A DNA stretch of 64,000 nt from Polynucleobacter sp. JS-Safj-400b-B2 (GTDB lineage: Bacteria; Pseudomonadota; Gammaproteobacteria; Burkholderiales; Burkholderiaceae). The stretch covers positions 202,290-266,289 of the forward strand of contig NZ_JACVPJ010000004.1 of the NCBI RefSeq assembly GCF_018881975.1, read 5' to 3'. Position numbers and translations under genes: made by a program. Of this stretch, positions 2,222-55,488 are shown piece by piece. Within the stretch, counting starts at the first letter, position 1; each line of letters begins with the position of its first letter. Below the pieces are notes generated by a model that worked only from the letters and a program-made list of their open reading frames with translations, was not told where the DNA came from and did no database searches.

Positions 2222-3271
2222 TTATATCAAATGCATTGCCAACCTCTTTCCAAACTCCAAATACCCTTTCGCATTCCCCATTACTGGCTCATCTAAAACG
2301 GTAAACTGCCCCGGAAATTGCTCGCGCATAGGTTTTTCAAAAAAGGTAGCGCCGCCGCCAGTCAAAATAACATTGTCTATGGAGATGGCTTTCCCAGAAG
2401 ATCGATCTACCTGGTGGCTATTAATCTCGGTTAACAACAGAGAAACAATACTCGATGCTTTACGCTCTGCGATGATGCGGTAGGGCGCAAAGTCGTAGCG
2501 CTTGCCCATCAGGTTGGTATACCCATTATGAAGTGCGGTATCTATTACATGCTCGTTAATCGAAATTCCAGTATCTTTGAGGAATGCTTTCCCTACCTCA
2601 TTCAAGATTGCTGAAACGCCTCCGTTAAATGCGCCTGATCGCTCCAAAACTGCTTTTGCCCCTTTACTGGTGAACCAATCAACCGTTAGGTATCCAGGGT
2701 CAATCACAAGGTGTGTTTTATCAAAAGCCTCCGAATTATTCTCCAGCTCAATGTAATGGAGCATGGAGCCCATAGGTTGAGGCAATACGGCAACCTTCTT
2801 GATGCTTGACGCGAAGCATGGTCCATAAATTGGCTTAAGACCGGCCGTGTTGGGGATTTGCAGGTTTTTGCAAAAGCGCTTAATTAACGCATCCTTCTTT
2901 TGGGAAAAATTCGATACTGGTAAGCCGAGCACTAAAAAATCAATCACATCCAATGTCATGCCCTCTGCCTTAGCGATGTAGTGCAGGGCGCCTATGACTA
3001 GAGCCTCGTAGGTATCTGATCCTGAGTAATCACCATGCAGTTCATTGCTGCCTTCGCCGGCCATATCAGGTCCAATCCAAAATAATTGCTTATTGACTAA
3101 GACTTGAACTCGGTCAAGCTGACCAATGCCAATATCGCTACCAGCAGGTTCGGTTGATCGCAGGGTTTGCGAGCTAAAAATCATTTCTTTAGCTGGGCCG
3201 CCATTAACTACCCAGGCCAGTTTAGTGTTGCCAAATCCTACGTCTATGGCGATGATGTTTTTGCTGCTCAT
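2222..3271 (-). CDS. parM: Actin-like segregation ATPase, ParM/StbA family (type II partition)
   Basis: The N-terminal IAIDVGFGNTKLAW phosphate-1 motif of the actin/ASKHA fold, a 349 aa size and co-transcription with a small DNA-binding-like protein downstream of a repeat array. Confidence 0.7.
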   Translation of the reverse strand: MSSKNIIAIDVGFGNTKLAWVVNGGPAKEMIFSSQTLRSTEPAGSDIGIGQLDRVQVLVNKQLFWIGPDMAGEGSNELHGDYSGSDTYEALVIGALHYIAKAEGMTLDVIDFLVLGLPVSNFSQKKDALIKRFCKNLQIPNTAGLKPIYGPCFASSIKKVAVLPQPMGSMLHYIELENNSEAFDKTHLVIDPGYLTVDWFTSKGAKAVLERSGAFNGGVSAILNEVGKAFLKDTGISINEHVIDTALHNGYTNLMGKRYDFAPYRIIAERKASSIVSLLLTEINSHQVDRSSGKAISIDNVILTGGGATFFEKPMREQFPGQFTVLDEPVMGNAKGYLEFGKRLAMHLI

Positions 3272-4610: not shown

Positions 4611-5675
4611 ATGATTTCGAAAAAAACAAACACCGCATTACAAGACATTACCCTCAACGAAGGCTGGAAGCGCCAGCTTCAAGACATTCTCAATAAAAAT
4701 TCCGGCACCAGAGTCAACGGCAAAGTCGCCTCAAACCGCACCCAAGATATCGCCTGCAAAACACTCTTCTCCGAGTTCAATACACTCAGGGATTTGGGTT
4801 ACCGCACTATGCCCATCAATTTCGGAAACAAACAAATGGAAGTGCTGGTAAAAAACTGGTATTACACCCGCAAGCTCTCTCCTAAAACGATGGCCACCCA
4901 TCTGACCCAGTTTAGAAAGTTTGCGGAGTGGATTGGTAAGAAGGGTATGGTCAGAGACCTTGTGCACTATCTATCCGATGTTGACCCAAAATTACTTCAA
5001 GTGCATTTTGCCGCCACCGAATCCAAAAGCTGGAGTGAGCATGATATTGACGTCATTGAGGAAATCACCAGAGGCGATGCAATGGATTTACGTTTCGGCT
5101 GCATGCTCCGTCTCGAATATGCTTTTGGATATCGTATGCAGGAATGCTTGCTCTGTGACCCATGGGTAACAGATAACATTCATTCCATTGCTATTTTACC
5201 CAGCCAAGGCAAAGGTAATCGCGCCCGCAATATCCCAATTGATAGCCCAGCTCAAAGAAAAATCATCGAATACATCAAAACCATTATCAAAAAAGGTGAA
5301 AAAGTAGGGTGGTGCGACGTTGATGGCACGCCACATGATTTAAAAGTAAACATCAACCGCTACGGCTATCTGATGCGAAAGCTAGGAATGACCAAAAAGG
5401 ATCGCGGCGTTACCGGGCACGGCTTAAGAGCCGAGTACTCTGAAGACCAAGCTCTTCGTCTTGGCTATATTCCACCAACCCTGGGCGGCACCAACGACCA
5501 AATGAGCAAGGAAGACCTCACCATTAAGCAAAAACAGGTGAGCGAACGTCTTGGGCATAGTCGATCTAGTGTGACGGCTGCTTACTACGGCTCATCTGAA
5601 CTTGCCAAAGAAAACACCAAAAGAAGGGATGAGGCTAAAAACAAAAATAAAGTCATCGATGCAGTAAGCCGCTAA
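4611..5675 (+). CDS. Tyrosine site-specific recombinase (phage-integrase family, divergent)
   Basis: Residues consistent with the R..K..H-x-x-R..Y catalytic set: GKGNRARNIPI, GHGLRAEY and RLGHSRSSVTAAYYGS with the candidate nucleophile Tyr. The size is 354 aa. Confidence 0.65.
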   Translation: MISKKTNTALQDITLNEGWKRQLQDILNKNSGTRVNGKVASNRTQDIACKTLFSEFNTLRDLGYRTMPINFGNKQMEVLVKNWYYTRKLSPKTMATHLTQFRKFAEWIGKKGMVRDLVHYLSDVDPKLLQVHFAATESKSWSEHDIDVIEEITRGDAMDLRFGCMLRLEYAFGYRMQECLLCDPWVTDNIHSIAILPSQGKGNRARNIPIDSPAQRKIIEYIKTIIKKGEKVGWCDVDGTPHDLKVNINRYGYLMRKLGMTKKDRGVTGHGLRAEYSEDQALRLGYIPPTLGGTNDQMSKEDLTIKQKQVSERLGHSRSSVTAAYYGSSELAKENTKRRDEAKNKNKVIDAVSR

Positions 5676-11738: not shown

Positions 11739-12890
11739 TTAAGCAGCCAATACCTCCAATTGCACATCCGTTTTCCAACGATGAATTTGGCTAAGCGTGC
11801 ATTCAGCACGATCAAGATCGCTTCGCTTGCCAAGATACACTGGCTGGAAAAGGCTGCCTCCAGTAAACGCATAAAGGTACTGAACCTCGATAAGATCACC
11901 TAACGATGGGATATTGGCTGATGGGGGGATGGTGACATTGCCAACATTGATCTCATTACCATTGACGTCATAAAGGGATATGCCGACACTGCGCTGTTGG
12001 TTGATTTTGGTTACCAAACAGGTTGAACTTTCCAAGAATTTGAATTTCAGGAAGTCGCCACCAGAATTGGGTCGTCCTGCCGCATGCTTGGAATTGATTT
12101 TCTTAAGCACAACACCTTCACCGGCAGCCGATAGCACGCTATCGCAAAATGCTTTTGCAGCTTCGATGCCATCCTCTGGGTAGATTGTTGGAATAAGCTT
12201 GATTTGCTCGCCTGACAATTCAAGGCTCTCCAACATCTCCCTAAGTGCAACAAAACGTCGCGCATAAGGCTGCTCTGACACTGTTGGGGCATTAGGGCAA
12301 AGGAGTGTATCAAAGACGTAGAAGACGTTTTTAACAATCTCACCATCGAGATAAAACTGCTCGCTGATTGCTTTTGAGCTCAGAAACTGGGAGAGGGATT
12401 GAGGTACATCGCGACATTGGCCTTTGCGGTTGAAGGCCGTCACTTGATCAACCTTGGAGCCTTTGTGCAGTAACGACATACGATCACCATCGGCCTTAAG
12501 CTGCATCACGTATTGGCCAGTAGCAAATAATTCAAGCACCTCTTCGATCGTATTGAGGGGGTTAAGCAGCTGCGCGCCAAAAGGCGATGTAACGGCCCGA
12601 ACTTCCGAAATTTCGATGACGTTATCACTTGGGCATGTCTGTCTCACGATGCTATAAATAGATGAACCTGAGCCCTTAAGCTTTGCCTCGATTGCCTTGG
12701 TATAGGCTTTCCTTGCGGCATCAAAATCAGAGTAGGGCGCTTTTTCTGGCTGCTGGCGAAGATTGCCGGCCGGGCCATTTTTGATCATAACGCTAAATGT
12801 GTCGTCATCGTTTTGACCAAGAATAACAAGGTATTCTTTGCCTCCGCTATTGCTCGGTGCTGACAGTAATGTTTGTTCTTTAACTTGCAT
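11739..12890 (-). CDS. ATP-dependent DNA (or RNA) ligase, minimal nucleotidyltransferase plus OB type, with an N-terminal WGR-like extension
   Basis: Covalent nucleotidyltransferase motifs: I QLKADGDR (KxDG), III FYLDGEIV, IIIa YVFDTL, IV EGVVLK and V FLKFKF. The first ~80 residues (EYLVILGQNDDDTFSVMIKNGPAGN) are WGR-like. Confidence 0.75.
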   Translation of the reverse strand: MQVKEQTLLSAPSNSGGKEYLVILGQNDDDTFSVMIKNGPAGNLRQQPEKAPYSDFDAARKAYTKAIEAKLKGSGSSIYSIVRQTCPSDNVIEISEVRAVTSPFGAQLLNPLNTIEEVLELFATGQYVMQLKADGDRMSLLHKGSKVDQVTAFNRKGQCRDVPQSLSQFLSSKAISEQFYLDGEIVKNVFYVFDTLLCPNAPTVSEQPYARRFVALREMLESLELSGEQIKLIPTIYPEDGIEAAKAFCDSVLSAAGEGVVLKKINSKHAAGRPNSGGDFLKFKFLESSTCLVTKINQQRSVGISLYDVNGNEINVGNVTIPPSANIPSLGDLIEVQYLYAFTGGSLFQPVYLGKRSDLDRAECTLSQIHRWKTDVQLEVLAA

Positions 12891-13251: not shown

Positions 13252-13262
13252 AAAATTAGTGA

Positions 13263-13334
<72 letters not shown>

Positions 13335-13636
13335 ATCGTGAAACCAACTACTCGCTGCGTCTAGTAACCCATTGGATATCACCCTGAAGTCTGCGATCTT
13401 CTTTGGTCGTTTTCTAGCATCCGCTTTCGTTGGTGCTATTAATTTAACCGTCAAAATTGTTTATGCAAATTCAATTCATTGAATAATAATTGCAGAATTC
13501 TTGGGTCCAGGCGAGACCTAAGTCGCATAACTTATCCTCGACCATGTAACTACCAGTGGTCACTGGCCATTGCTCTAAGTTATTGATTTAAAGCGAATCC
13601 CGCTTACAAAAAATATGACTCTCGAGGGTAATTTTT

Positions 13637-14086: not shown

Positions 14087-14668
14087 TTATGCTTTGGTCG
14101 TCTCAGCTTTTAAAGAACTACGGAGTTCCGATAGGGTTCCTTGCGCCAAAAATTCTAATCCAGGATCTATGGGTCCAAGCCCGGCAATAACTGCCTCAGA
14201 CCAATCGGCGTACTGAGCAATTCGCTCCATGGGCCATCCATCTGGAGGACTCTTGACCATGTCACTCAGATTGCATATTTTGTCTGCAATCTTAACAAGC
14301 TTGGCGCCATAACTCAGATGTGGCGCATGCTCAATCTGCAGACGCTTGCGCACATCGCTTGTCAAGGATTTATCATCTGTTACCTCCTTGACGATCCCTA
14401 GAACATTCTCACCAAATAGGAATTGAATCTGGTGTTCGGTAGTATTGGTGTCCTCCAGTACATCATGCAGGATGGCCGCAATGATAATCTCCTCATCCCC
14501 TAGCTCGGACAGAAGGTGCGCAACTCCAATTGGGTGATTAATGTACGGGGTCTGCTCTTTGTCTTTACGGCGCTGTTTGGTATGTTTGTGCGCCGCAAAA
14601 GCAACAGCATCAAGAATCTTACGAGAGAGGAAGGCTGGGGAGGTGGGTGGCGATTTTTCTTTAAACAT
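14087..14668 (-). CDS. HD-domain small alarmone ((p)ppGpp/(p)ppApp) hydrolase, SpoT/Mesh1-like
   Basis: FAAHKHTKQRRKDKEQTPYINHPIGVAHLL...AILHDVLEDT matches the RelA/SpoT hydrolase-domain signature (HD, and ED at the second metal site). A 193 aa single-domain protein. Confidence 0.75.
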   Translation of the reverse strand: MFKEKSPPTSPAFLSRKILDAVAFAAHKHTKQRRKDKEQTPYINHPIGVAHLLSELGDEEIIIAAILHDVLEDTNTTEHQIQFLFGENVLGIVKEVTDDKSLTSDVRKRLQIEHAPHLSYGAKLVKIADKICNLSDMVKSPPDGWPMERIAQYADWSEAVIAGLGPIDPGLEFLAQGTLSELRSSLKAETTKA

Positions 14669-22914: not shown

Positions 22915-24177
22915 ATGAGCTCAACTACCAAAATTAAAATTGGAACCTCGGAGATTTCGCTTGATCACTTTCAACATGAGCCGCAAAAATACGCTCATGC
23001 TGTTTTACTGGCTAAAAATACGGTTGGGCACGCCAATTGCCTATGCAATAAAGATTGCCCCAGACTGGTTATAGCGAGACGTGCAGGGCGATACTATGTC
23101 GCAGGATGGCCTAATGAGGGTCACCTACATCATCCTGGGTGTGACTTTTTCAAAAACGAATCAGGGGGCTCTGGCTTGGATTCGTATTCTCAAGAGGCGC
23201 TACAAAAGAGGGGTGACGGTTCATTTTCGATTCGGCTAAACCAGCCCCTTAGTCTGGAACTTGGGGCGCCAACTAGACCCCCATCTGGCGCACGAACCAA
23301 GGTAGATTCAAAATCAACATCAAGACGATCATCAACGCTTTTGGGGCTACTTCACTACCTATGGGAAGAGTCCAACCTCAATCGCTGGTTTCCCGGGTGG
23401 CGTAGAGATTGGTATTTGGCTCGCAATCACCTTTTAGCAACCACATCCAAAGGGGAAATTGCTGGAAGGAGCATGTCTGAGGCGATGTATGTTGTGCCAA
23501 AGTTTTCTACAAATGCAGCACAAGAAATTAAAAGATCATGGGATACCTGGTCCGTACCATTGCTACGTAGCGCAATGGGCGCTACGCCTGCTAAATTGAA
23601 AAATTCGAAATCAATAACCAGAATACATACGGGGATGATTCTTGGCAGAATAAAGGCAGTTGAACGTACCGATCGTGGTTACATCATCAAACTTAAAGAT
23701 CATGCCTATCCCATTTATGCTAAACATGCTCTTATTGAGAAATTAGAAAAGAGATTCGGAAGATTCACTGCGCATATAGAACAAAACCAAGGCGAATGCA
23801 TTGTTTTGGCGCTCTTGATGCCTCACGAAAAAGGCTATTTCAGCCTCATCGATGCAGGCATAATGTATACCAGCGCGGCACTCATTCCAATCGAATCTAA
23901 CCATGAATTAAAGGTTGCCGATGCGCTGCGTTTGGCAGATCGACACTTCTCAAAACCATTGCTATACGATAGCTCGGATGAGGTATTCCCTGACTTTGTT
24001 TTATACGATACAGCCCGATCAAAAACCATTATGGAAATTTACGGCATGGTTGGCAATCAAGCGTACGACAATCGCAAAAAAGAAAAGCAAGAAGTTTATC
24101 GAAAGGCTGAGGCTGATCTTTGGGTTTGGGATCTTACAAAATCAAAAGATATGCCACCATTGCCACCGGTACGTTAA
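22915..24177 (+). CDS. DUF1173-like protein, a Cys-cluster protein typical of ICE/plasmid backbones
   Basis: N-terminal CLCNKDCPRLVIARRAGRYYVAGWPNEGHLHHPGCDFF cysteine/histidine cluster and a 420 aa size. The family call is from memory of that signature. Confidence 0.5.
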   Translation: MSSTTKIKIGTSEISLDHFQHEPQKYAHAVLLAKNTVGHANCLCNKDCPRLVIARRAGRYYVAGWPNEGHLHHPGCDFFKNESGGSGLDSYSQEALQKRGDGSFSIRLNQPLSLELGAPTRPPSGARTKVDSKSTSRRSSTLLGLLHYLWEESNLNRWFPGWRRDWYLARNHLLATTSKGEIAGRSMSEAMYVVPKFSTNAAQEIKRSWDTWSVPLLRSAMGATPAKLKNSKSITRIHTGMILGRIKAVERTDRGYIIKLKDHAYPIYAKHALIEKLEKRFGRFTAHIEQNQGECIVLALLMPHEKGYFSLIDAGIMYTSAALIPIESNHELKVADALRLADRHFSKPLLYDSSDEVFPDFVLYDTARSKTIMEIYGMVGNQAYDNRKKEKQEVYRKAEADLWVWDLTKSKDMPPLPPVR

Positions 24178-24281: not shown

Positions 24282-24533
24282 TTAGGAAAATGGATTTGGC
24301 TTTCTAGAGGGAGGCTTAATTTCGAGAGTCTTTGGTAGCCCAGTTACATCCTCTAATGCGTCAACACCGGCATTCACAATCTGGGCTAAGAGCTTAAGGT
24401 CAGCGAGCCCGGCCTGACTAAAATCAAAGTTATGCTGACCATAAATTTTTAACGAGTCAGAGCCGTTCTCAATGGTGATCCCGCCAATCTGGATGGATTG
24501 AGCATCGTTTTTAAAGGTAACAAATTTACTCAC
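24282..24533 (-). CDS. Small protein (83 aa) translationally coupled downstream of the secreted nuclease, a candidate inhibitor or immunity partner
   Basis: The start overlaps the nuclease stop by 8 nt. Acidic, with no signal peptide. Confidence 0.4.
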   Translation of the reverse strand: MSKFVTFKNDAQSIQIGGITIENGSDSLKIYGQHNFDFSQAGLADLKLLAQIVNAGVDALEDVTGLPKTLEIKPPSRKPNPFS

Positions 24534-25317
24534 CGATTACCCCTTTCCCTGATGGTTTTGGAAGTCTTAATAATCCCACATTTTGTACGCCAGGCAACAT
24601 ATTCATGCCAGTGAGTTGATTTAGCTCTTGAACACTAATTTCTGTGTATTCTTGACCTTCTGGGCCATCGCTATTAATTTCCAAATAGGCTGCGGCCTCA
24701 TTGCGCGAAGGTAGATACACAAGTTTGTAAAGTCGAGTTGGGATGGCGACTCGATTATTTAACCAAGAAATACTACTGCCATCAAAGATAGGCCCGGTAA
24801 TAGTGTAGACCTCGCCTACCTTCTGGGCAAAATGCCTAACGGCACCCTCGATATGTGCATGCAAGCCTCTATTATTACGTGGTGCCTGTGGAATCATATT
24901 TGATAGATTGTAGGTGGCAAATTCAGTTTCATTGGACCACGAATCTGCATCACTAGCCATGTGACCTCGATCAAATCCTGAGCGTTTGAAGTCGCTTAGT
25001 TCAGCTCGATCATTATGAGATAAACGATCATCTGGCCTAAAGCTATTTTCTCTGCCGCGACCTTTACGTTCGGCCATGTGCTCAGATGTAATATGCTCGG
25101 CAGAATAAAGGGGGTCTCTGGTCAATTTGGAGTAACCAGTTGCAAACACCCCGCCTTGGGCGCAGAGCTCCACAAAACCTTGCGCTAATTTCGGGTTAAC
25201 CAATTGCGGCGGTTGTCCGCTTGCATAGTTTTCTGGGCAGCCGCTGGTCGCAAAAACAGATTGAGTAATGCTGCCAATTGCAATGGAAATAATGAGCTTG
25301 GTGAATAGTGCGTTCAA
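24526..25317 (-). CDS. Secreted DNA/RNA non-specific endonuclease (beta-beta-alpha-Me, Serratia NucA/EndoG family)
   Basis: Signal peptide, then GFDRGHMAS (the DRGH catalytic motif) and the downstream NLSNMIPQ Asn metal ligand. Confidence 0.75.
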   Translation of the reverse strand: MNALFTKLIISIAIGSITQSVFATSGCPENYASGQPPQLVNPKLAQGFVELCAQGGVFATGYSKLTRDPLYSAEHITSEHMAERKGRGRENSFRPDDRLSHNDRAELSDFKRSGFDRGHMASDADSWSNETEFATYNLSNMIPQAPRNNRGLHAHIEGAVRHFAQKVGEVYTITGPIFDGSSISWLNNRVAIPTRLYKLVYLPSRNEAAAYLEINSDGPEGQEYTEISVQELNQLTGMNMLPGVQNVGLLRLPKPSGKGVIGE

Positions 25318-25679
25318 GGGTTAGCAATTCCTGGGGTAATGGTTGCAATGCCATTAGGACAAGCGGCAATGGCGGCCGCAATTAAATTTTGCGCCTGAGT
25401 ATTGTTACCAGAGGCAATTGCCGCATCTAATCCTGGGGTTTGCGATAAATAGTTTTGCAATGCTGCAGGTGACTGCCCCGAAGGGCAAGCCGGCAGGATA
25501 TTTTGATTTGGCGCGGCAGCTTGAGCGGCTGCTACCCCTTGATAAAGAGCTCCGCTTATAGATGCGACCGCAGACTCCATAGCGGAGCCTATATCAATCT
25601 GCGCTTTAGCGTTCGTCGATAGGGCAAGCACTACAACGGCCGACATAGTAGCAATTATTGTCTTATTAATGCGAAACAT
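25314..25679 (-). CDS. Secreted Ala/Gln-rich hypothetical protein
   Basis: Start chosen at MFRINKTIIATMSAVVVLALSTNAKAQ, a signal peptide. Confidence 0.4.
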   Translation of the reverse strand: MFRINKTIIATMSAVVVLALSTNAKAQIDIGSAMESAVASISGALYQGVAAAQAAAPNQNILPACPSGQSPAALQNYLSQTPGLDAAIASGNNTQAQNLIAAAIAACPNGIATITPGIANP

Positions 25680-25944
25680 AGCATTTCTCCTGTGCGTAAT
25701 CAATATCTGTTTGGGTTGCCAGTAGGTTCGGCACAATCCCATCAGTGATTTTTTTTGACTCTAAGATAGCATTAAGTAGCATTGCCTCTGCGCTCGCCTC
25801 TTGAGTATTGCGTTCAATAGCATCATTAATAAGTCGGTTATACCCTTCAACACTAATTTTCGATGGAAATTGTTCATCGGCAATCATCAGCAAAAAGTCG
25901 CGCTCATTAGGGTTAATTGACAAGGTATTTTTATAAGCAATCAT
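25666..25944 (-). CDS. Hypothetical protein (92 aa)
   Basis: ORF at the head of the nuclease operon. Confidence 0.3.
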   Translation of the reverse strand: MIAYKNTLSINPNERDFLLMIADEQFPSKISVEGYNRLINDAIERNTQEASAEAMLLNAILESKKITDGIVPNLLATQTDIDYAQEKCYVSH

Positions 25945-28833: not shown

Positions 28834-29805
28834 TCAAATAAATAGGCTAAATTCAGGAGCATTTTTAAATCTTTCGGCCCCACCTCTCGCGTAGTCGTAG
28901 ATAACATCGCAGGCAAGCCAACGACGACCGAGTTCTTGAGCCGCTTTGGCGGTAGTAAAGGATCCCGCCATTGGGTCGACTACCAAGTCATCTTTTTGCG
29001 TCATAAATTCAATTAAGAATTTCGACATACTTAATGGGTAGCCTGCGCCATGAGCCTCGACACCCAAATCTTTAGCTGCCTTTTTATAAGCACGCTGATC
29101 TGCGCAGTTATGCGGGAAAGTGAGAAGATTGCGAGGAATCCGACCTGGTGTGGGGCTGGAGTAGCTACCTTCTTTGACCGTGTAAGCGCCGTCGGAGCTA
29201 ATTCTTTTTTGAGTAACGCCGCCAGCCTCAATGAACTTGAGGTGTTTTTCAGTATGCGGTTGCAATACTCGTCTATTGTTTGATCGGCATTCCTTTGGGT
29301 CTAAGCAAAACCAATAGATCGGCTCCCATCCGACGTTAAGCTGTTGCCGTGTTTTGCTTGCCCATTCCATTGGCCCTGGCGGCTTACAAGGGTTATGCCA
29401 AATTAATTCATCCATTTTGAAAAGGCCAAGGCGATCATGCAATGCAATTACAAGCCTCTCGCGGTATAAGCTCCGAGCAGGTAGTCCGGCGAGGAAAATG
29501 TCATTACTTAAATTCAAACAAATACTTCCACTTTTAGCCATGTTCTTGATGACGGGCTCCATGGCTGAGCAGATAAAATCGACATATTCTGATTCTGGGG
29601 GATTGCCATAGGCGCGCGGCTTACGAAGCGGGTAGGGCGGAGAAGTAAGGCAAAGATGAATTTGCTGACCATCTAGACGGCTAAAAATATCCTTACAGTC
29701 ACCCCATAAGGCGATTCCAAGATCGGTTGAAAAAGCGAGTAGTATTTTTCCAGCCTGAATCCTCTCAAATTTTTTCGGGTATCCGAGTTTTGTGGTTGAT
29801 GCTGC
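28834..29805 (-). CDS. Beta-class amino-methyltransferase (N6-adenine or N4-cytosine) whose N-terminus is interrupted by an in-frame TAA, with no canonical start codon before motif IV
   Basis: Motif IV SPPY (29622 region) precedes motif I DPMAGSFTT, the beta-class order. The conserved N-terminal ALWGDCKDIF...LTSPPY lies upstream of the only ATG (29562). An ATG at 29835 is followed by a TAA at 29806-29808 in the same frame. Confidence 0.75.
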   Translation of the reverse strand, partial: AASTTKLGYPKKFERIQAGKILLAFSTDLGIALWGDCKDIFSRLDGQQIHLCLTSPPYPLRKPRAYGNPPESEYVDFICSAMEPVIKNMAKSGSICLNLSNDIFLAGLPARSLYRERLVIALHDRLGLFKMDELIWHNPCKPPGPMEWASKTRQQLNVGWEPIYWFCLDPKECRSNNRRVLQPHTEKHLKFIEAGGVTQKRISSDGAYTVKEGSYSSPTPGRIPRNLLTFPHNCADQRAYKKAAKDLGVEAHGAGYPLSMSKFLIEFMTQKDDLVVDPMAGSFTTAKAAQELGRRWLACDVIYDYARGGAERFKNAPEFSLFI

Positions 29806-29898
29806 TTAAATTACTATGCGTTGAATAATTTTCATTTTGATTGATGACACTAATAAAACATTTATGCATTCATCTACTTGGATACAGAAGTCAACCGC

Positions 29899-30498
29899 CT
29901 AAATATCACCACCCTTTGCCTTGCTGCCAAGGTAGCCGCTATGGTGACGCAGGGCGTAATCATTGGCTCCATACCCCGACATTTGCACCACTAAAACAGC
30001 CAATACATCACCAATGACAGTCATGGCGGTAGTCGAAGTGGTTGGCGTAAGCCCAAGCGGGCAGGCCTCCACTGGATCGCCAGTCCATAGTACGAAATCG
30101 GACTTATTGGCCAATGGCGAGTTTTGCTTGCCCGTAATAGCGATAATTTTGAGGGAGGGAATGAGGCGTTTTGCAAGGGTCTCTAGCTCCAAGACTTCTC
30201 GCGTCTGGCCGGAGTTTGATATGAGCATCAATACATCGTTTTGATGAAGAAGCCCTAAATCACCATGTTGTGCCTCTAGTGGGTGCAAAAACGCGCTTGG
30301 CAAACCAACAGAGCAAAAAGTAACAGCCATCTTCTTGCCGACCTCGCCAGCTTTCCCCACACCGCTGATGACAAGTTTTCCACTATTTGCCTTAGCTTTT
30401 AAAAAGAGTTTGGTACATTGCTCAAAAGGATTTTCCTTTGGAATGAAGGCAATTGCCCTAGCCTCAGCGGCGAGTACATCTTGGATTATTTTTATCAA
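29899..30498 (-). CDS. SIS (sugar isomerase) domain protein, KpsF/GutQ N-terminal-domain-like
   Basis: VISGVGKAGEVGKKMAVTF...HPLEAQHGDLG matches the SIS phosphosugar-binding fold. The protein is 199 aa with no CBS domains. Confidence 0.7.
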   Translation of the reverse strand: MIKIIQDVLAAEARAIAFIPKENPFEQCTKLFLKAKANSGKLVISGVGKAGEVGKKMAVTFCSVGLPSAFLHPLEAQHGDLGLLHQNDVLMLISNSGQTREVLELETLAKRLIPSLKIIAITGKQNSPLANKSDFVLWTGDPVEACPLGLTPTTSTTAMTVIGDVLAVLVVQMSGYGANDYALRHHSGYLGSKAKGGDI

Positions 30499-30600
30499 AA
30501 TTTAGTCCGTTTATTGTGGATGCGACTTGGATGCAATGCAGTCAGCCAATCACAAAACTCTGTTTATGAGTTAATTGCTATTTTGCACGATATGGGTAAA

Positions 30601-30879
30601 TCAATCATGAAACTCGGATACCCATTTTTTCTTGCCAGCATCAGTAAGGCGCCATTCTGACCGATTGCCGGCGGGCTCAAGCAAACCAAGTCGCTTTAAA
30701 TCTTGCTGGTACCATCGGATTTTTCGATTGAGGATATTGTGCTTTTGCCTGCACTTACCAACGGGCTGTACTGAATCGCCAGAATTTGGCGCAACTTTGT
30801 TATAAAGGGATTTATTACTCAGCGTTCCGGTGCCGGCGTAGGCTTGGGCGATATCGAATAGGTCTATTTGTTTTGGCAT
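30601..30879 (-). CDS. Small basic protein (92 aa), possibly winged-helix
   Basis: RWYQQDLKRLGLLE...LTDAGKKKW wing-like segment. Confidence 0.3.
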   Translation of the reverse strand: MPKQIDLFDIAQAYAGTGTLSNKSLYNKVAPNSGDSVQPVGKCRQKHNILNRKIRWYQQDLKRLGLLEPAGNRSEWRLTDAGKKKWVSEFHD

Positions 30880-35527: not shown

Positions 35528-36517
35528 ATGATCAATCACGAAACAATCTTATCGACGCTTTACATTGCACTAAACCCCATCAAAGAATATTTGGAGGGTG
35601 ATGGCATCAATGAAATCATGATTAATCCAGGGGGCGATGTCTGGATTGAGCGAAGGGGAATGATTGAGCATATTGGCGTTTTACTCAACGAGAATCAAAT
35701 AAAATTCGCCATTTATTCGGTAGCCAAACTCACCGGTAAGGCGGCAAGCCCAGGCGATGAAAATGCGCTAGTCAACGCAGCTTTTGAAGATTTTCGTTTT
35801 GCAGGAGTGCTGCATCCCATTTCACCTGATGGAAGCACGATTTGCATTCGAAAACATCAGGATAAAAGTCAGAGGCAGACTTTTGAAGATATGATTGACT
35901 GCGCCATGATTACCCAATCTCAAGGCGATTTTATATTGGATATGTTTGTTAAAAAGCATCAAAATATCATCATCGCAGGTATTACTGGCTCGGGCAAAAC
36001 AACCCTTTTAAATGCAATTGCCGGAAAAATACCAAACCATGAACGGGTGGTTACGATTGAAGATACAAGAGAACTCCATATATCTGTGGCGAATAAAGTA
36101 TCACTGTTATCAAATGAGCTTAACAATATTCATGCGGTAGATTTGGTTAAAGAGGCTTTGCGCCTGCGCCCGGACCGGATATTGCTAGGGGAAACACGTG
36201 GGTCAGAAACATTCGACTTAATAAGGGCCTTTAATTCGGGCCACGCCGGCATATCCACTGTACATGCTAATTCAGCAGTGCTGGCCTTAGATGCGATTGA
36301 GATGCTTTATCAAATGAGCCTACCAAAAGGAGCGGGCATTAGTTCGGCAGTGGTAAGACAGTACATTGCAAAATCAGTCAACATGACTATCTATGCAAAT
36401 CGACGATATATCCCGCAGCCAGACGGCACTATTCGCGCCGTTCGTAAAGTTGAGGAAATTTGTGTAATCAAGGGGCTTGATCGCGATGGAAATTACGAGG
36501 TTGAATACATCAAATAA
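35528..36517 (+). CDS. trbB: VirB11/TrbB-family type IV secretion ATPase
   Basis: Walker A GITGSGKTT, TIEDTRE (the Asp box), Walker B RILLGETRG and the His box HAGISTVHANS. Confidence 0.8.
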   Translation: MINHETILSTLYIALNPIKEYLEGDGINEIMINPGGDVWIERRGMIEHIGVLLNENQIKFAIYSVAKLTGKAASPGDENALVNAAFEDFRFAGVLHPISPDGSTICIRKHQDKSQRQTFEDMIDCAMITQSQGDFILDMFVKKHQNIIIAGITGSGKTTLLNAIAGKIPNHERVVTIEDTRELHISVANKVSLLSNELNNIHAVDLVKEALRLRPDRILLGETRGSETFDLIRAFNSGHAGISTVHANSAVLALDAIEMLYQMSLPKGAGISSAVVRQYIAKSVNMTIYANRRYIPQPDGTIRAVRKVEEICVIKGLDRDGNYEVEYIK

Positions 36518-42297: not shown

Positions 42298-42633
42298 ATG
42301 CTCAGAAACTCTTATGTTTACAAGGCACTTTCAAGAACGCACTTGGTTTTGGGAATTCCTGTAAAAATATTGGCCATTATTTGGTCAATTGCCTCCTTCA
42401 CAATCCTAGGTCTGTGGGTGGCTAAAGCATTGACTTGGTGGGATTGTATTGGCGTGCTAGCCATATTTTGGGCTATCCACAATCTGATTGCAGTCCAATT
42501 TGATAAGGATTCATTAATAGACAAGATTTATAAAATCTATTCAACAACCAAAGACCACTACCACCCAGAGTCCCGCATCTTAGATCGCATGCATGAGCGC
42601 CCAAGTAAATACGGCAGAGGCGTGCGATGCTAG
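42298..42633 (+). CDS. VirB3/TrbD-like protein
   Basis: A 111 aa protein with two TM helices. Its stop overlaps the VirB4 start. Confidence 0.5.
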   Translation: MLRNSYVYKALSRTHLVLGIPVKILAIIWSIASFTILGLWVAKALTWWDCIGVLAIFWAIHNLIAVQFDKDSLIDKIYKIYSTTKDHYHPESRILDRMHERPSKYGRGVRC

Positions 42634-45164
42634 GCCTTCGATTTAAAGATAAAGAAGTTGCCGGACCGGTACAGGAGGTCTGCCCATGGTTAGATTTTAT
42701 TAACCCTGAAATGATCCTATGCAAAGACGGTTCATTGCTTGCTGGCTTTGAATTTAATGGCGTAGACATTGAAAACGCTACCGATGAGCATAAAAATGCG
42801 GTAGTCAACGAGCTTCAAAGAGCTTATCAAGGGTTTGATAACAGAGATACGCTAACCTGGGTGTTTGACAAAAAGCGATCGTACAGCTATCCAGAAAATA
42901 TCTTTCTCAATCCAATCTCCAAAAGAATTGATGACCTGTACTCCGAGCCATTTCGGCAGGGTTACTACTTTACCCTCTCAAATCGCCTGTATTACCTTTA
43001 TACGGGCAAGGCCGGTATTGCGCGATTTATGGATACGTTCGCAAGAGAGACTGAAAAAAACGGAAAAAATGCATTAACGGCATTGCTTTTAGCCGCAAAG
43101 GACTCTCTAACCGGAAGAATTAGCTATGAAATCGATGGGCAGCAAATCATGCATAACATCGAGCAATTTGAGCGCCGTCTTACGCAGTTCTTAGTTCAAA
43201 CTCCGTCGATTAAATGGAAAAGGCTTGGGTATGAGGATTTAAAAAATGCTCTTTCAATGCAAATCAATCCAGCCTCAATCAACCACACAGCCAAAAAACC
43301 ATTTGGTCAAATGCTTGACTCATGGTTACCTAGTAATACGGTTACGCCCGGATCTGACATTATCCGATTTGATGGAGCTGGACGGACAAAGTACATGAGC
43401 ATTATTGGCATAAAGGAATGGCCAAACTTAACTCACCCTGACCTAATGGGTAAGTTAATGGAGATTGATACCGAAGTTACCGTTTGCCAGACTATGCGAT
43501 TTCTGGGTCATAAAGGGACGCAAGCCAAGCTAAATGATGCGGTAGATTTTTACAAGCTAACCCAAGTTGGGATCATAAAAAACGCCATCGCCAAGCTGAC
43601 TAAGAAACCCCCTGAACCTGACCCGGGCAAATATGAATTATATGCAGAATGCGTTCAGGCTCTAGCCAGACTTGAGGTTGATAACATTCAGTACGGATAC
43701 CACACCATGGCCGTGTGTACTAGTGCCGAATCAAAGAAAGAGCTTGCTCAGTCAGTAGAAAACATCAGCACAGTTCTGAGTCGAAACTTTCAAATCATTG
43801 CTGAAAGCATGAATGCTTTCGCCTCATGGGCAGCGACATTGCCGGGGCAGTGGGCTATGCAGTCACGCTGGTCATTGGTGAGCAATGAGAATTTGGCTGA
43901 TATTTCCCCGATTTTCACTATTAATCATAGACCCAAAAATAATGGAGCATTTGAAGAAATGCTCGGCAAAAAAGCTAATGCACTTTGCGTGTTTAATGAT
44001 ATTTACGGTGGAGTTGAATATTTTAATAGTCATGTTGACCAAGTGGGGCACGCCATCATTATTGCACCAACAGGGGGCGGCAAAACCACCATTGTAAACC
44101 TAGCTTTATCACAATTTCAGAAATACACGAAGGATGGCAAAGAGCCAAATACGATTGTTTTTGATAGGGACTATTCGGTTCGCATAACCGCCAAGCTTCA
44201 GGATGCATCGCACATTGACTTAAAGTCTGGTCGCATTCGAATGAACCCATTAATGGCGCTCTTTGACGATGATGCAAATTCCAACGAGGAAAAAACCAAC
44301 ACAAAAGACGACTCCAATCAAGAAATCTCATCTACAACAAATGGGTTCTTATGGTGCAGGGATTTTGTGGGACGAAGAATTGAGGCAAATGGATACAAGC
44401 TAACTGCCGAGGACATTAAATCAATAGATGATGGGCTTTTAATGCTTAAGGGGTCGCCAGCTCAAAAGCCAAGATTATCTAAGTTGGCAATATTGCTGCC
44501 AAAGCATTTGGCGGCTGAGTTAGGGGAGTGGCTAGAAGGTCGTCCATTTGGCATGTTTGATTCCGAGGATGATGAGTTCTCCCTAAGCTCATTTACTTGC
44601 ATTGAAATGAAAGAGTTTTTGGAAAACGAAAGATTGGCCCAAGCCTTCTTGGATTATGCATTTCGCAAGGTTTATTCGAAGCTGGATGGTAGGCCAACCT
44701 TTATCTACATTGAAGAGGCATCATTCCTACTCAATCATCCTACGTTCCAAAAAATGCTCGATGACTGGTTAAAAACATTTCGCAAAAAAGGGGCATTTGT
44801 TTGGATGGCCGTTCAATCGCCAACGTCAATTGTCAACGCAGAGATAGCGGCCAGCATTACGGATAACGTTAAAACCAAAATATTGCTATTCAATAAATCA
44901 GCTGAAGCCCATCGTGATTCATATAAGAAGTATTTTGGACTTGATGATTATCAAGTTGACAGAATTGCAAGTTTAGTAAAAAAACGCGATTACTACATTA
45001 TTTCAGATGGCGAGGCACGCACAGTTCAAACCCAGTTTTCAAAAGAATGTCTTGCCTATTTGAGATCTGAACAGCATTTGCAGAATATTTACGACGCCAC
45101 ATACAGCCCAGATGATGATAGCTGGAAAGAAAAATATATTGAAAAGGTCATGGTGCTTAAGTGA
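42627..45164 (+). CDS. trbE: VirB4/TrbE-family conjugative transfer ATPase
   Basis: An 845 aa protein with Walker A IIAPTGGGKTT and Walker B-like FIYIEEASFL. The gene context is pilin-VirB3-VirB4. Confidence 0.8.
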   Translation: MLGLRFKDKEVAGPVQEVCPWLDFINPEMILCKDGSLLAGFEFNGVDIENATDEHKNAVVNELQRAYQGFDNRDTLTWVFDKKRSYSYPENIFLNPISKRIDDLYSEPFRQGYYFTLSNRLYYLYTGKAGIARFMDTFARETEKNGKNALTALLLAAKDSLTGRISYEIDGQQIMHNIEQFERRLTQFLVQTPSIKWKRLGYEDLKNALSMQINPASINHTAKKPFGQMLDSWLPSNTVTPGSDIIRFDGAGRTKYMSIIGIKEWPNLTHPDLMGKLMEIDTEVTVCQTMRFLGHKGTQAKLNDAVDFYKLTQVGIIKNAIAKLTKKPPEPDPGKYELYAECVQALARLEVDNIQYGYHTMAVCTSAESKKELAQSVENISTVLSRNFQIIAESMNAFASWAATLPGQWAMQSRWSLVSNENLADISPIFTINHRPKNNGAFEEMLGKKANALCVFNDIYGGVEYFNSHVDQVGHAIIIAPTGGGKTTIVNLALSQFQKYTKDGKEPNTIVFDRDYSVRITAKLQDASHIDLKSGRIRMNPLMALFDDDANSNEEKTNTKDDSNQEISSTTNGFLWCRDFVGRRIEANGYKLTAEDIKSIDDGLLMLKGSPAQKPRLSKLAILLPKHLAAELGEWLEGRPFGMFDSEDDEFSLSSFTCIEMKEFLENERLAQAFLDYAFRKVYSKLDGRPTFIYIEEASFLLNHPTFQKMLDDWLKTFRKKGAFVWMAVQSPTSIVNAEIAASITDNVKTKILLFNKSAEAHRDSYKKYFGLDDYQVDRIASLVKKRDYYIISDGEARTVQTQFSKECLAYLRSEQHLQNIYDATYSPDDDSWKEKYIEKVMVLK

Positions 45165-46026: not shown

Positions 46027-47265
46027 TTGATGAATGGATTGCTTAAAAAGGGAGTATTTGCCGCAATACTCATACTTGCATCTGGCGCATCCTTTGCTCA
46101 GGCAAGCGCAGATCCTACCGCATCGATGTGGACAAATCTTGCGTCGATTGCGGATAACTTTTTCAATAACTTCAACATCTTCCAAAATGCCGACTCCCTC
46201 ATTTTGGGTGCTGGGCTAGGCATTTCTCAAAAGCTTATGAGCACTGCCCTAACCCTCGGGGGCTCGCTAGCTCTGATTAATTTGTTATGGGTAGCTATTG
46301 ACCACCTAGTTTTAAGGGGGCATCGCGATCTTATATGGCCCCCCATAATTCATTCCGTTGTAATGGCGGTAATTACAGGTGCCGTCCTTAGAGCCTACCC
46401 ATTACTAGCGCAAGGGGCAATAGACTTTTTTATGGGCGTAACAAATTTAGTATCTGGGTCAGCCTCAACAAGCCAGGTGCAATCCATTGGGAATCAGCTT
46501 ACTAATTTAGCTATCAACGGGATTAAATCAGCGCTTGAGTCGGTTCATGCATTTGATTGGAACGCTAAGGCAATTTTACTAATAATAATTGACGTTCTTT
46601 TGACGTTGATTGTGGGTCTATTTTGCATGATCATGGCAATTTTGATGTTTGTATCAGTGGTTAGTTCGATATTTACAGGAACCTTAATGGCAGGTTTAGC
46701 TATCGCATTAGGGCCACTTTTTATCGCCACAATTGCATCCGGATTTACAAGGACATTCTTCGATAAATGGTTTGGATTTTTATGTAGCGCTCTTTTCGTT
46801 AAGGTTGTTGTGATGACGATGTTAGCCCTTTTGGTTGGTATTTTTGATTCATCGACTAATGCTCAAAACTCTGTAGGCCAAATGAATGCCGGGGGCTTTG
46901 CGTTTGGAAAGTTATTGGTTCTCGCAGTCTCGCTATGGATCATGAAGCAATTGATGGAAAGTGCGCCCAATATTGCGTCCGCACTAATGCCTGGCGGGCT
47001 TGGCGTTAGCGTAAAGAGCGCCATGGGGACTGCTGTGGCGGCTGCATCAGGAGTCGTTGGGGCGGGCTTGGCGGCCGCTACCGGTGGCGCTGGCGCGCTA
47101 ATGGGTAATGCCGGAGCAATGTCGGCCGGCAAGGATGCCGCAGGAAAATTGGCGGCAGGTGCCATGTCAAACGCCAAAGAAGCGATGATGGGGAAGCTTG
47201 GCGCCACACCAAGAGCGGGGCCAGCATCAAAGCCCAAGCCATCCACTTCAGATTCTGGCGACTAA
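46027..47265 (+). CDS. TrbL/VirB6-like polytopic membrane protein with a Gly/Ala-rich C-terminal tail
   Basis: Signal peptide, about six TM helices and a C-terminal GGAGALMGNAGAMSAGKDAAGK low-complexity tail. Confidence 0.55.
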   Translation: MMNGLLKKGVFAAILILASGASFAQASADPTASMWTNLASIADNFFNNFNIFQNADSLILGAGLGISQKLMSTALTLGGSLALINLLWVAIDHLVLRGHRDLIWPPIIHSVVMAVITGAVLRAYPLLAQGAIDFFMGVTNLVSGSASTSQVQSIGNQLTNLAINGIKSALESVHAFDWNAKAILLIIIDVLLTLIVGLFCMIMAILMFVSVVSSIFTGTLMAGLAIALGPLFIATIASGFTRTFFDKWFGFLCSALFVKVVVMTMLALLVGIFDSSTNAQNSVGQMNAGGFAFGKLLVLAVSLWIMKQLMESAPNIASALMPGGLGVSVKSAMGTAVAAASGVVGAGLAAATGGAGALMGNAGAMSAGKDAAGKLAAGAMSNAKEAMMGKLGATPRAGPASKPKPSTSDSGD

Positions 47266-47277
47266 AAGGAACTATAA

Positions 47278-48187
47278 ATTGAACATTAAACACTTACTGT
47301 CCACGGTTGCTTGTGCGATAGCTCTTTGTGCAGCCATTATTCCAGCGAAGGCTTCGAATGAGCCATTGGCTGTTGACGGCACCTTTAGCGAAGATCATGG
47401 TAAGGACGAGGCTCATGCCTTGGCTGTCACCCCAATCCATGCATTAAGCGCAATAGGGCAACCATTAAAAATAGTGATCACCGATGAAGTACTTAAAAAT
47501 GAGGGTGCACTTAGAAAAACTAAAAGGTGGAAAATTTCCCGCCAGAAGCAAGATACATCGGGATTGAGTGTAATTTTTATAGAGCCCACTAAAAGGGACT
47601 TAGAGGATAAGTTGATTTTTGGAACATCGGAGGGTATTAAAACCTTAATCATTTATTCTGGGCCACAGGGTGGCAAGGTCAGCCCCCCTATTATTTTAAG
47701 CAACTATTTTCGCTCGCCAAAATCTTCACAAAAGCAAATTGCTTTGCCGCCAATCGCGGTACCAGTTAAACCTGAAACGGTTAAGCGTGATGTAAATATT
47801 GAAAGTGCAAATACAGGCACGGAAATTTACCTCCCAGAAAAACAAAAAATCGCTGAAATTCGCGAGATTTCATTTAACGAAAATGCAGTCAAAAGTGCAC
47901 CATTAATGGATGAAGTTGATTTGCCAAATTTCACGCAACCCGTGGAAATAACAAATAAATGGACGGTGCATCGTGGTGATTATTTATGTTCAAAAATACA
48001 AGAATGGGCAAATCACTCGGGTTGGCAGGTGAGCTGTGAGGCAGATGCAGAAATTCTAGGTGATGTGAGCGTGAATAAGGATTTACCTTTGGCAATCAAT
48101 CAACTAGTAAAGGCAATAGGGGCGGATAAATTCAAAATTCGCATTTATAAACAAAACAAAATGATTCGAATTTCTGATTACCAATAA
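47278..48187 (+). CDS. PilL/TcpQ-like periplasmic protein of type IVb pilus systems
   Basis: TTG start with an AAGGA RBS, a signal peptide, and a C-terminal WTVHRGDYLCSKIQEWANHSGWQVSCEA segment resembling the TcpQ-type C-domain. Family assignment from memory. Confidence 0.4.
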
Positions 48188-48195
48188 GCAAACTA

Positions 48196-49848: not shown

Positions 49849-49853
49849 ATACC

Positions 49854-51750: not shown

Positions 51751-51761
51751 AGAAAACTTTT

Positions 51762-54997: not shown

Positions 54998-55044
54998 TGA
55001 TGAATTAACCAGCATTGGATATTTCAATGCTGGTTTTCTAACTC

Positions 55045-55485: not shown

Positions 55486-55488
55486 GCG

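What the first reader, a model, noticed from the sequence alone, without database searches (positions are those of the whole stretch)
24282..25944. Secreted DRGH non-specific endonuclease operon with a small coupled downstream partner
- A signal-peptide-bearing Serratia-NucA/EndoG-type nuclease (GFDRGHMAS) is encoded in a four-gene minus-strand operon.
- It is translationally coupled by an 8 nt overlap to an 83 aa acidic cytoplasmic-type protein. This layout resembles nuclease plus inhibitor pairs such as NucA/NuiA.
- The nuclease is cargo on a mobile element.
- Possible roles are extracellular DNA degradation, DNA uptake or competition, or a toxin/immunity pair.
Basis: partly seen in the sequence, partly recalled or inferred. 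Interest (0 to 1): 0.55.

Follow-up and report, generated by a model that had tools for sequence, protein, structure and literature searches.

The report
Exported nuclease with conserved small partner
A secreted-type DNA/RNA-cutting enzyme on a conjugative element is followed by a small cytoplasmic protein that belongs to a large, unnamed family found almost only next to such nucleases, so it is most likely a new kind of built-in nuclease inhibitor.

Summary
Four overlapping minus-strand genes lie at 24282-25944. The third is a genuine Endonuclease_NS (Serratia/NucA/EndoG) nuclease with an intact DRGH site and a signal-peptide-like N-terminus. It overlaps an 83-aa ORF by 8 nt.

The 83-aa protein has no Pfam, NCBIfam, PHROG or PADLOC match and no similar solved structure, so it is not NuiA-like. 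It is nevertheless not an orphan. A profile finds 771 cluster representatives across several bacterial phyla.

The linkage holds in both directions:
- Starting from the small gene, about 74 of 75 genome loci have the nuclease directly upstream (median gap 14 nt).
- Starting from the nuclease, 59 of 68 metagenome loci have the small gene directly downstream.

The nucleases carry export signals and the partners do not. The partner is usually acidic and ends in a nearly invariant, flexible NPF-x tail.

Best reading (confidence 0.6, inferred, not shown): a cytoplasmic safety inhibitor of an exported nuclease, working like NucA/NuiA but with an unrelated fold. Only the nuclease and small gene form the conserved core; the two upstream ORFs are lineage-specific. 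The window is a conjugative element. A prediction of the complex could not be run.

The parts
24282..24533 (-). Small partner gene: 83 aa, GTG start, no signal peptide. Predicted structure is three beta strands, one long helix and a flexible C-terminal tail ending in NPFS.
   Evidence: ORF and sequence. Family of 771 representatives. AF2 model with pLDDT 85. No Pfam, NCBIfam, PADLOC or PHROG hit.
24526..24533 (-). 8-nt overlap (GTGAGTAA) between the nuclease stop and the small-gene start, implying translational coupling.
   Evidence: Sequence. Across relatives, the gap from the nuclease stop to the first conserved partner residue has a median of 14 nt.
24526..25317 (-). Endonuclease_NS (beta-beta-alpha-Me, DRGH) non-specific nuclease, 263 aa, TTG start.
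   Evidence: Pfam PF01223 at E=3.7e-41. PDB sequence hits to EndoG, NucA and Serratia nuclease. AF2 model with pLDDT 90.5 matches EndoG, NucA and Serratia nuclease by Foldseek at E about 1e-15.
25249..25317 (-). Signal-peptide-like N-terminus of the nuclease (MNALFTKLIISIAIGSITQSVFA), followed by the conserved CPxxY/F motif.
   Evidence: Sequence. The same feature appears in 74 of 89 related nuclease ORFs; most of the rest are truncated. C27 and C52 are invariant.
24961..24972 (-). DRGH catalytic motif (D116-H119).
   Evidence: Sequence. Invariant in alignments A2, A8 and A9.
25314..25679 (-). orfB: 121-aa exported-type protein of unknown family. Lineage-specific accessory gene, not part of the conserved core.
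   Evidence: Sequence. Conserved only in L001, L004 and L006 (67% identity in L001) and absent from other contexts.
25666..25944 (-). orfA: 92-aa protein of unknown family. Lineage-specific accessory gene.
   Evidence: 64% identity in L001. No family hit.

Best explanation
The core is a two-gene module. The nuclease is made with a Sec-type signal peptide and is active outside the cytoplasm, in the periplasm or the medium. There it probably folds around a disulfide between two invariant cysteines and cuts DNA and RNA non-specifically.

The 83-aa protein is translated from the same mRNA by coupling and stays in the cytoplasm. It binds any nuclease that folds before export or fails to be exported, and blocks its active site. 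The host and the element's own DNA are thereby protected. It acts as a 'safety catch' inhibitor, in the manner of NucA/NuiA and barnase/barstar.

The likely inhibitory element is the flexible, nearly invariant C-terminal NPF-x-COOH tail. I propose that it reaches into the Mg2+ site, while the acidic beta-sheet and helix body covers the nucleic-acid groove.

Shown here:
- the nuclease identity and intact catalytic residues;
- the export-signal asymmetry between the two proteins;
- the near-obligate, bidirectional gene linkage;
- co-divergence of the two proteins;
- the novelty of the partner's sequence and predicted fold.

Inferred: physical binding, inhibition, and the role of the tail.
For: 1. 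The nuclease is an intact Endonuclease_NS enzyme. D116, R117, G118, H119, N140, N149 and E157 are invariant.

2. Linkage starting from the partner. Of 80 GTDB genome loci found with a partner-family pattern, essentially all with enough upstream DNA (about 74/75) have an Endonuclease_NS gene immediately upstream on the same strand. The median gap is 14 nt and 60 of 73 gaps are 30 nt or less.

3. Linkage starting from the nuclease. Of 68 metagenome loci with at least 300 nt downstream, 59 have the partner gene directly downstream. The 9 exceptions are among the most distant nucleases in the scan, at 38% identity or less.

4. The pair persists while the flanks change completely (L010, L014, L015, Cupriavidus and Geobacter plasmids, an A. 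baumannii chromosome) and after insertions between the two genes (ISL3 in L012, an RDD gene in Cupriavidus).

5. The nucleases carry signal-like N-termini (74/89). The partner ORFs start a few residues before the conserved domain and have none.

6. The pairwise identities of the two proteins co-vary: r=0.76, Mantel 0/2000.

7. The partner family is acidic, with median pI 4.7 and 117 of 129 members below pI 6.

8. N80, P81 and F82 are 97-99% conserved. Of 147 members with the motif, 123 end 0-2 residues after it. The LP-to-NPF spacing is 12 residues in 90 of 132 members. The tail has lower pLDDT.

9. Two-domain tandem forms exist, and L047 has two tandem copies. EndoGI uses a two-domain layout to inhibit dimeric EndoG (PMC2790893).

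10. [quoted passage not shown]
Against: - No binding or inhibition data exist.
- The signal peptides were judged by a hydrophobicity heuristic and by eye, not by a dedicated predictor.
- If the invariant cysteines make the enzyme inactive in the reducing cytoplasm, as described for Serratia nuclease, an inhibitor would be less necessary.
- Some related nucleases lack the partner. Ferrovum (55% identity) has an unrelated 200-aa gene instead.
- A few family members carry N-terminal hydrophobic extensions and might be exported (P0144, P0146, P0163, P0169, P0173).
- The window's own partner is only weakly acidic and lacks the D39 found in 91% of the family.
Confidence: 0.6

Rival explanations
1. 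The small protein is a dedicated export or folding chaperone (secretion pilot). It holds the pre-nuclease in an export-competent state or helps it mature, without acting as a tight active-site inhibitor.
For: The same linkage, coupling and localisation asymmetry fit this reading. The small size and flexible tail resemble chaperone-like adaptors.
Against: Sec substrates of this size rarely need private chaperones. The acidic character, the invariant C-terminal motif at a fixed distance from the end, and the tandem two-domain forms fit an active-site or DNA-groove blocker better. Known partners of this nuclease family are inhibitors.
Confidence: 0.12
2. The pair is an offensive secreted nuclease toxin with an immunity protein (bacteriocin-like). 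The cytoplasmic partner protects producers and kin from nuclease that re-enters cells.
For: The pair is frequent on plasmids and conjugative elements: 55 plasmid records, plus this window. Toxin and partner co-diverge. In Ferrovum the partner is replaced by an unrelated gene.
Against: The mature nuclease consists of the catalytic domain alone. No receptor-binding or translocation domain, lysis gene, or T6SS/CDI/Rhs context was seen. The family shows moderate, clock-like divergence rather than the hypervariable interfaces typical of toxin-immunity pairs.
Confidence: 0.1
3. The pair is a post-segregational killing (addiction) module that stabilises the mobile element, with a stable nuclease toxin and a labile antidote.
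For: It lies in the maintenance region of a conjugative element, and next to ParM-type partition genes on Cupriavidus plasmids.
Against: The export signal on the 'toxin' is conserved. The partner is downstream and has no DNA-binding domain. Many copies lie on large contigs of 0.2-3 Mb that look chromosomal.
Confidence: 0.06
4. The small protein has a function not directed at the nuclease protein, such as a regulator or a nucleic-acid- or metal-binding accessory, and is merely co-transcribed with it.
For: No direct interaction evidence exists. The fold has no solved analogue from which a function could be read.
Against: Near-obligate adjacency in both directions across several phyla, retained after insertions between the genes, is hard to explain without a direct functional dependence. 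The protein has no HTH or other nucleic-acid-binding signature.
Confidence: 0.1

Closest known systems
NucA / NuiA of Anabaena (Nostoc) sp. PCC 7120
   Same: An exported Endonuclease_NS nuclease paired with a small cytoplasmic protein. The window nuclease matches NucA in sequence and fold (1zm8, 2o3b_A). [quoted passage not shown]
EndoG / EndoGI of Drosophila
   Same: The same nuclease superfamily, with a protein inhibitor that blocks the active site and the DNA groove using acidic residues. Two-domain inhibitor forms exist in both systems.
   Different: EndoGI is built from helical repeats, is nuclear and eukaryotic, and is not encoded next to the nuclease. The folds are unrelated.
Barnase/barstar and colicin DNase/Im pairs
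   Same: A secreted nuclease with a small acidic inhibitor encoded next to it in the same operon. This is the general 'antidote to a secreted nuclease' logic.
   Different: The nuclease folds or domain architectures differ. Colicins carry translocation and receptor domains, which are absent here. The inhibitor folds are unrelated.
Serratia marcescens nuclease (Benzonase type)
   Same: A secreted DRGH nuclease with the same fold (1ql0, 1g8t). Cysteines probably form disulfides only after export (invariant C27 and C52).
   Different: The source read here describes disulfide-dependent activation, not a protein inhibitor, as the Serratia safeguard. The clade studied here almost always has a partner gene.

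Membership tests
Endonuclease_NS (PF01223; Serratia/NucA/EndoG beta-beta-alpha-Me nucleases) | Profile match above the curated threshold | tested here: met
   141.7 bits against a cut-off of 23, E=3.7e-41, covering residues 58-245.
Endonuclease_NS (PF01223; Serratia/NucA/EndoG beta-beta-alpha-Me nucleases) | DRGH motif with the catalytic His, plus the metal-binding Asn in the S/A-N-x-x-P-Q segment | tested here: met
   D116-R117-G118-H119 and N140 (LSNMIPQ) align with EndoG. They are invariant across relatives.
Endonuclease_NS (PF01223; Serratia/NucA/EndoG beta-beta-alpha-Me nucleases) | Fold of the family | tested here: met
   The AF2 model (pLDDT 90.5) matches EndoG, EXOG, NucA and Serratia nuclease with Foldseek E about 1e-15 and probability 1.00.
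Endonuclease_NS (PF01223; Serratia/NucA/EndoG beta-beta-alpha-Me nucleases) | Mg2+-dependent non-specific DNase/RNase activity | not testable with these tools
   Needs an enzyme assay.
Secreted/periplasmic bacterial members of that family | N-terminal Sec signal peptide | tested here: met
   MNALFTKLIISIAIGSITQSVFA has a positively charged start, a hydrophobic core and a small-residue cleavage region. A hydrophobicity heuristic is positive in 74 of 89 relatives. No dedicated predictor was available.
NuiA nuclease inhibitors (PF07924) | Sequence similarity to NuiA | tested here: not met
   No Pfam family at E of 0.01 or less for the 83-aa protein or for family members. A profile of 103 members finds no PDB sequence at E below 0.49.
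NuiA nuclease inhibitors (PF07924) | NuiA alpha/beta fold | tested here: not met
NuiA nuclease inhibitors (PF07924) | Binds and inhibits the cognate nuclease | not testable with these tools
EndoGI | Two helical-repeat domains, each blocking one EndoG active site | tested here: not met
   The model is a single beta3-alpha domain. Only some relatives are two-domain.
Type II toxin-antitoxin modules | Cytoplasmic toxin; antitoxin usually upstream and DNA-binding | tested here: not met
   The nuclease has a conserved export signal. The partner is downstream and has no recognisable DNA-binding domain.
Nuclease bacteriocins / polymorphic toxins with immunity proteins | Toxin carries receptor-binding or translocation domains, or T6SS/CDI/Rhs delivery domains | tested here: not met
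   The mature protein of about 240 aa is the nuclease domain alone. No delivery genes lie next to the pair in the loci examined.

The most novel reading that the evidence does not exclude
The 83-aa protein represents a third, structurally new class of protein inhibitors of EndoG/NucA-type nucleases. The family is widespread (at least 771 clusters at 50% identity), has never been named, and is almost obligately paired with exported Endonuclease_NS enzymes in Proteobacteria and neighbouring phyla. It would plug the Mg2+ active site with an invariant C-terminal NPF-x tail.
Probability: 0.5. Interest if true: 0.65.

Novelty: new variant of a known kind. Interest (0 to 1): 0.58.

Why it matters
If the partner is an inhibitor, hundreds of 'hypothetical protein' genes gain a function, including copies in Acinetobacter baumannii, Cupriavidus and Azospirillum. 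It would also explain how many Gram-negative bacteria and their plasmids safely produce a Benzonase-like enzyme.

It would add a compact inhibitor scaffold of about 80 residues with an apparently new fold. Such a scaffold could be used for heterologous production, affinity purification or switchable control of non-specific nucleases. A 2026 review names inhibitor co-expression as a strategy for producing toxic nucleases and uses NucA/NuiA and barnase/barstar as its prime examples (PMC13522737).

It would also mark periplasmic or secreted nucleases as common cargo of conjugative elements. That bears on eDNA turnover, biofilms and barriers to transformation.

Tried and rejected
- Nucleotide search of the operon against plasmids found no match.
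- A genome scan with the single nuclease protein matched 118 pattern stretches, none confirmed, because the patterns were too specific.
A 22-sequence subset, A7, worked.
- AF2 complex prediction: 41 fused nuclease-linker-partner sequences were built from paired loci, but the tool refuses non-native sequences.
- The AFDB Foldseek library was not available.
- NuiA-like fold: rejected.
- P0184 (1690 aa, 12 stretches) is a YDG/MBG-repeat protein and was treated as a spurious profile hit.
- The longer hits P0172 and P0240 are not nuclease fusions; they have no nuclease HMM hit.
- Apparent nuclease disruption in L007 and L009 is an artefact. L007 reflects a gene-calling problem with the TTG start, and L009 contains a scaffold gap of Ns.
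- Intervening small ORFs between nuclease and partner in L001 and Geobacter pSD are unrelated to each other.
- PADLOC and PHROGs gave nothing for the partner.
- The literature searches found no description of this partner family. Only open-access texts were searched.
- Whether A. baumannii 'NucAb' is the paired nuclease was not established.
Full report
OBSERVATION

On the minus strand, four ORFs occupy 24282-25944.
- orfA: 25666-25944, 92 aa.
- orfB: most likely 25314-25679, 121 aa, from an ATG preceded by GGAG. Its N-terminus looks like a signal peptide.
- Nuclease: 24526-25317, 263 aa, TTG start.
- Small ORF: 24282-24533, 83 aa, GTG start.

Successive genes overlap by 14, 4 and 8 nt. The 8-nt overlap reads GTGAGTAA and follows a purine-rich GGGAAAGGGG stretch.

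The nuclease matches Pfam Endonuclease_NS at E=3.7e-41. It aligns with EndoG, EXOG, Anabaena NucA and Serratia nuclease in the PDB. Its AF2 model (pLDDT 90.5) matches the same structures by Foldseek at E about 1e-15. The DRGH motif (24961-24972), the metal-binding Asn140 in LSNMIPQ, N149 and E157 are all present and invariant among relatives.

The N-terminus MNALFTKLIISIAIGSITQSVFA looks like a Sec signal peptide. It is followed by an invariant Cys (C27), and a second invariant Cys lies at C52.

Minor corrections:
- The 83-aa protein is only mildly acidic, with pI 5.6.
- The co-directional gene string continues upstream through NERD, SNF2, a 126-aa ORF and a DNA methylase. No terminator-like site was found on the minus strand between 24000 and 26800.

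THE SMALL PROTEIN IS NOT AN ORPHAN

It has no hit in Pfam, NCBIfam, PADLOC or PHROGs. A word-indexed search found only 3 close relatives.

Reading the DNA around nuclease homologues revealed relatives at about 43% identity downstream of nucleases at 61-72% identity, in quite different neighbourhoods (L010, L014). A profile search then gave 11 clusters.

An exhaustive HMMER search of 1.84 billion representatives gave 771 hits at E of 0.001 or less, and 384 at 1e-10 or less. Nearly all are 80-90 aa. Some are two-domain proteins of about 155 aa.

Every member that carries a name is called 'hypothetical protein'.

Conserved positions, in window numbering and from an alignment of 103 members: P6, F7, E22, N23, D26, G32, D39 (S in the window), G42, L43, L66, P67, N80, P81 and F82.

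STRUCTURE OF THE SMALL PROTEIN

AF2 with the family alignment gives a confident model, with pLDDT 85 and pTM 0.67. It has three beta strands (12-16, 19-23, 28-32), one long helix (40-61) and a lower-confidence C-terminal tail.

GENE LINKAGE, TESTED IN BOTH DIRECTIONS

Test 1, starting from the partner. A pattern from a partner sub-alignment retrieved 146 confirmed relatives in one-genome-per-species GTDB contigs, of which 80 loci were kept. They come from Beta-, Gamma- and Alphaproteobacteria, Desulfuromonadia (Geobacter and relatives), Campylobacterota (Sulfuricurvum, Sulfurimonas), Chlorobiaceae and Nitrospiria.

I searched all six frames with my own HMMs. Every locus with enough upstream DNA except one (L068) has an Endonuclease_NS gene immediately upstream on the same strand. 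That is about 74 of 75.

The distance from the nuclease stop to the first conserved partner residue has a median of 14 nt. It is 30 nt or less in 60 of 73 loci and 100 nt or less in 72 of 73.

Test 2, starting from the nuclease. A metagenome scan seeded only with a nuclease alignment kept 80 loci. Of the 68 with at least 300 nt downstream, 59 carry the partner gene directly downstream. The nine without it are among the most distant nucleases of the scan, at 38% identity or less. Some of these lie in other contexts; two are followed by what looks, by eye and untested, like a ribosome-hibernation-factor gene.

Further points:
- The pair survives insertions between the two genes. Examples are an ISL3 transposase in L012, an RDD-family gene on Cupriavidus plasmids, and unrelated small ORFs in L001 and Geobacter pSD.
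- Pairwise identities of nuclease and partner are correlated: r=0.76, with 0 of 2000 Mantel permutations reaching that value. This is consistent with inheritance as a unit.
- orfA and orfB are found only in the closest relatives (L001, L004, L006). Elsewhere they are replaced by other genes: YdjM in L012, VRR-NUC in Cupriavidus, and DUF5131 plus a 127-aa ORF in Ferrovum.
- One nuclease at 55% identity (Ferrovum) is followed by an unrelated 200-aa gene instead of the partner.

LOCALISATION ASYMMETRY

In 74 of 89 related nuclease ORFs, a positively charged start and a hydrophobic stretch precede the conserved Cys. Most of the remaining ORFs are truncated by contig ends. The partner ORFs begin a few residues before the conserved domain and have no such segment. 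This was a heuristic, not a dedicated signal-peptide predictor.

A handful of partner relatives have hydrophobic N-terminal extensions that I could not evaluate.

MECHANISM

The facts are these:
- The enzyme is intact and potentially lethal, and it is exported.
- The partner is a translationally coupled, cytoplasmic, mostly acidic small protein (median pI 4.7).
- The two genes are almost never found apart.

Together these match the established logic of cytoplasmic 'insurance' inhibitors of secreted nucleases, such as NucA/NuiA, barnase/barstar and colicin/Im. That logic is summarised in PMC2790893.

The most striking feature of the family is its C-terminus:
- NPF occurs in 139 of 157 members examined.
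- The protein ends 0-2 residues after the motif in 123 of the 147 members that have it, and exactly one residue after it in 93.
- The spacing from the conserved LP to NPF is 12 residues in 90 of 132 members.

NuiA inhibits NucA through a direct bridge from its C-terminal residue to the catalytic metal, and EndoGI places carboxylates where DNA phosphates bind. By analogy, I propose that the NPF-x-COOH tail enters the metal site while the acidic body occupies the nucleic-acid groove.

Tandem two-domain forms and tandem gene copies (L047) recall the two-domain EndoGI.

All of this is inference.

RIVALS

The alternatives considered are:
- an export chaperone;
- a bacteriocin-like toxin with an immunity protein;
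- a plasmid addiction module;
- an unrelated co-transcribed function.

The toxin readings are weakened by two points. The nuclease domain has no delivery domains, and the export signal is conserved. The unrelated-function reading is weakened by the bidirectional linkage.

CONTEXT

The window is a conjugative element. It carries:
- a VirB4/TrbE-like ATPase (42627-45164);
- TrbL/VirB6 (46027-47265);
- type IVb pilus genes, comprising TcpQ-like, secretin, PilO, a T2SSE ATPase, T2SSF and a shufflon-type PilV (47198-56595);
- a second T2SSE ATPase (35528-36517);
- a ParM-like actin (2222-3271);
- an integrase-like gene (4611-5675);
- DNA methylases.

Near-identical contigs (over 99%) occur in ENA 'GROS21' metagenomes. 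The partner family occurs on 55 plasmid records, of which 13 are typed conjugative and 13 mobilizable. 'Cargo on a mobile element' is therefore supported for this copy. The module as a whole is not restricted to mobile DNA, because many GTDB hits lie on large contigs of 0.2-3 Mb.

What the exported nuclease does for the element was not addressed by any test here. Possibilities include eDNA scavenging, biofilm remodelling, or a barrier to incoming DNA.

NOVELTY

The kind of system is known: an exported non-specific nuclease with a cytoplasmic protein inhibitor. The partner family appears undescribed, for four reasons:
- it is absent from Pfam (2025), NCBIfam (2026), PHROGs and PADLOC;
- it has no solved structure or recognisable fold;
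- it is annotated only as hypothetical;
- it is not mentioned in a 2026 review of nucleases and their inhibitors, which covers NuiA and EndoGI, or in the 2017 His-Me finger classification.

Only open-access literature could be searched. I rate it a new variant of a known kind, with interest 0.58.

Noticed in passing
window 29769-30631: An 847-bp insertion (29777-30623) is absent from the near-identical contigs L006 and L007. It has 24-nt terminal inverted repeats (88% complementary) and is flanked by an 8-bp direct repeat, ATTTTTTC. Its only long ORF (29899-30498, minus strand, 199 aa) is a SIS-domain protein, not a transposase. It splits the N6_N4 DNA methylase gene, which is 396 aa in L006 but survives as a 242-aa remnant at 28834-29562 here. 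It looks like a non-autonomous TIR element carrying a passenger gene.
   Followed up: partly
L001/L002 7760-8011; L184 3790-4026; L181 3385-3984; L012 6076-7924: In several relatives something has been inserted between the nuclease and the partner gene. The inserts are an unrelated 83-aa ORF, a 78-aa ORF (Geobacter pSD), an RDD-family gene (Cupriavidus plasmids), and an ISL3 transposase plus a 74-aa ORF. The partner gene is kept in every case.
   Followed up: partly
proteins P0132, P0134, P0135, P0150, P0155, P0156, P0162; L047 3995-4666: Two-domain tandem versions of the partner (about 150-180 aa) exist, and one locus has two partner genes in tandem. This recalls the two-domain EndoGI, which clamps a nuclease dimer.
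   Followed up: no
L019/L020 4834-5436 (Ferrovum myxofaciens chromosome): A nuclease at 55% identity is followed at a 12-nt gap by an unrelated 200-aa protein of no known family instead of the partner. This could be an alternative partner.
   Followed up: partly
proteins P0144, P0146, P0163, P0169, P0173: A few partner-family members have hydrophobic, signal-like N-terminal extensions. They could be mis-called starts or genuinely exported variants.
   Followed up: no
window 13261-13335 (minus strand): A tRNA-Met gene lies inside the element, next to an ATP-dependent DNA ligase-like gene (11739-12890) and an HD-domain gene (14087-14668).
   Followed up: no
window 22915-24177 (plus strand): A DUF1173 gene converges on the small gene. 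It is conserved next to the module in the close relatives L001, L006 and L007, and has a weak PADLOC hit to the candidate defence protein PDC-S68.
   Followed up: no
L183 (A. baumannii X4-300 record NZ_CP064203.1, 3.97 Mb, filed as a plasmid); H51/H52 (Acinetobacter 'phage' MD-2021a, 240 kb): The nuclease and partner pair also occurs in an Acinetobacter baumannii chromosome-sized record, with about 720 nt between the genes. The partner gene occurs in two 240-kb records labelled as Acinetobacter phage.
   Followed up: partly
L007 8058-8665: An insertion of about 608 bp, with two 66-aa ORFs, lies between the partner gene and DUF1173 relative to the window.
   Followed up: no
window 55489-57883: A PilV-like gene with a shufflon N-terminal constant region (55489-56595) is followed by a 377-aa ORF (56694-57827) with no Pfam hit and an overlapping 131-aa ORF (57488-57883). 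A shufflon rearrangement region may be present. Repeats were not examined.
   Followed up: no
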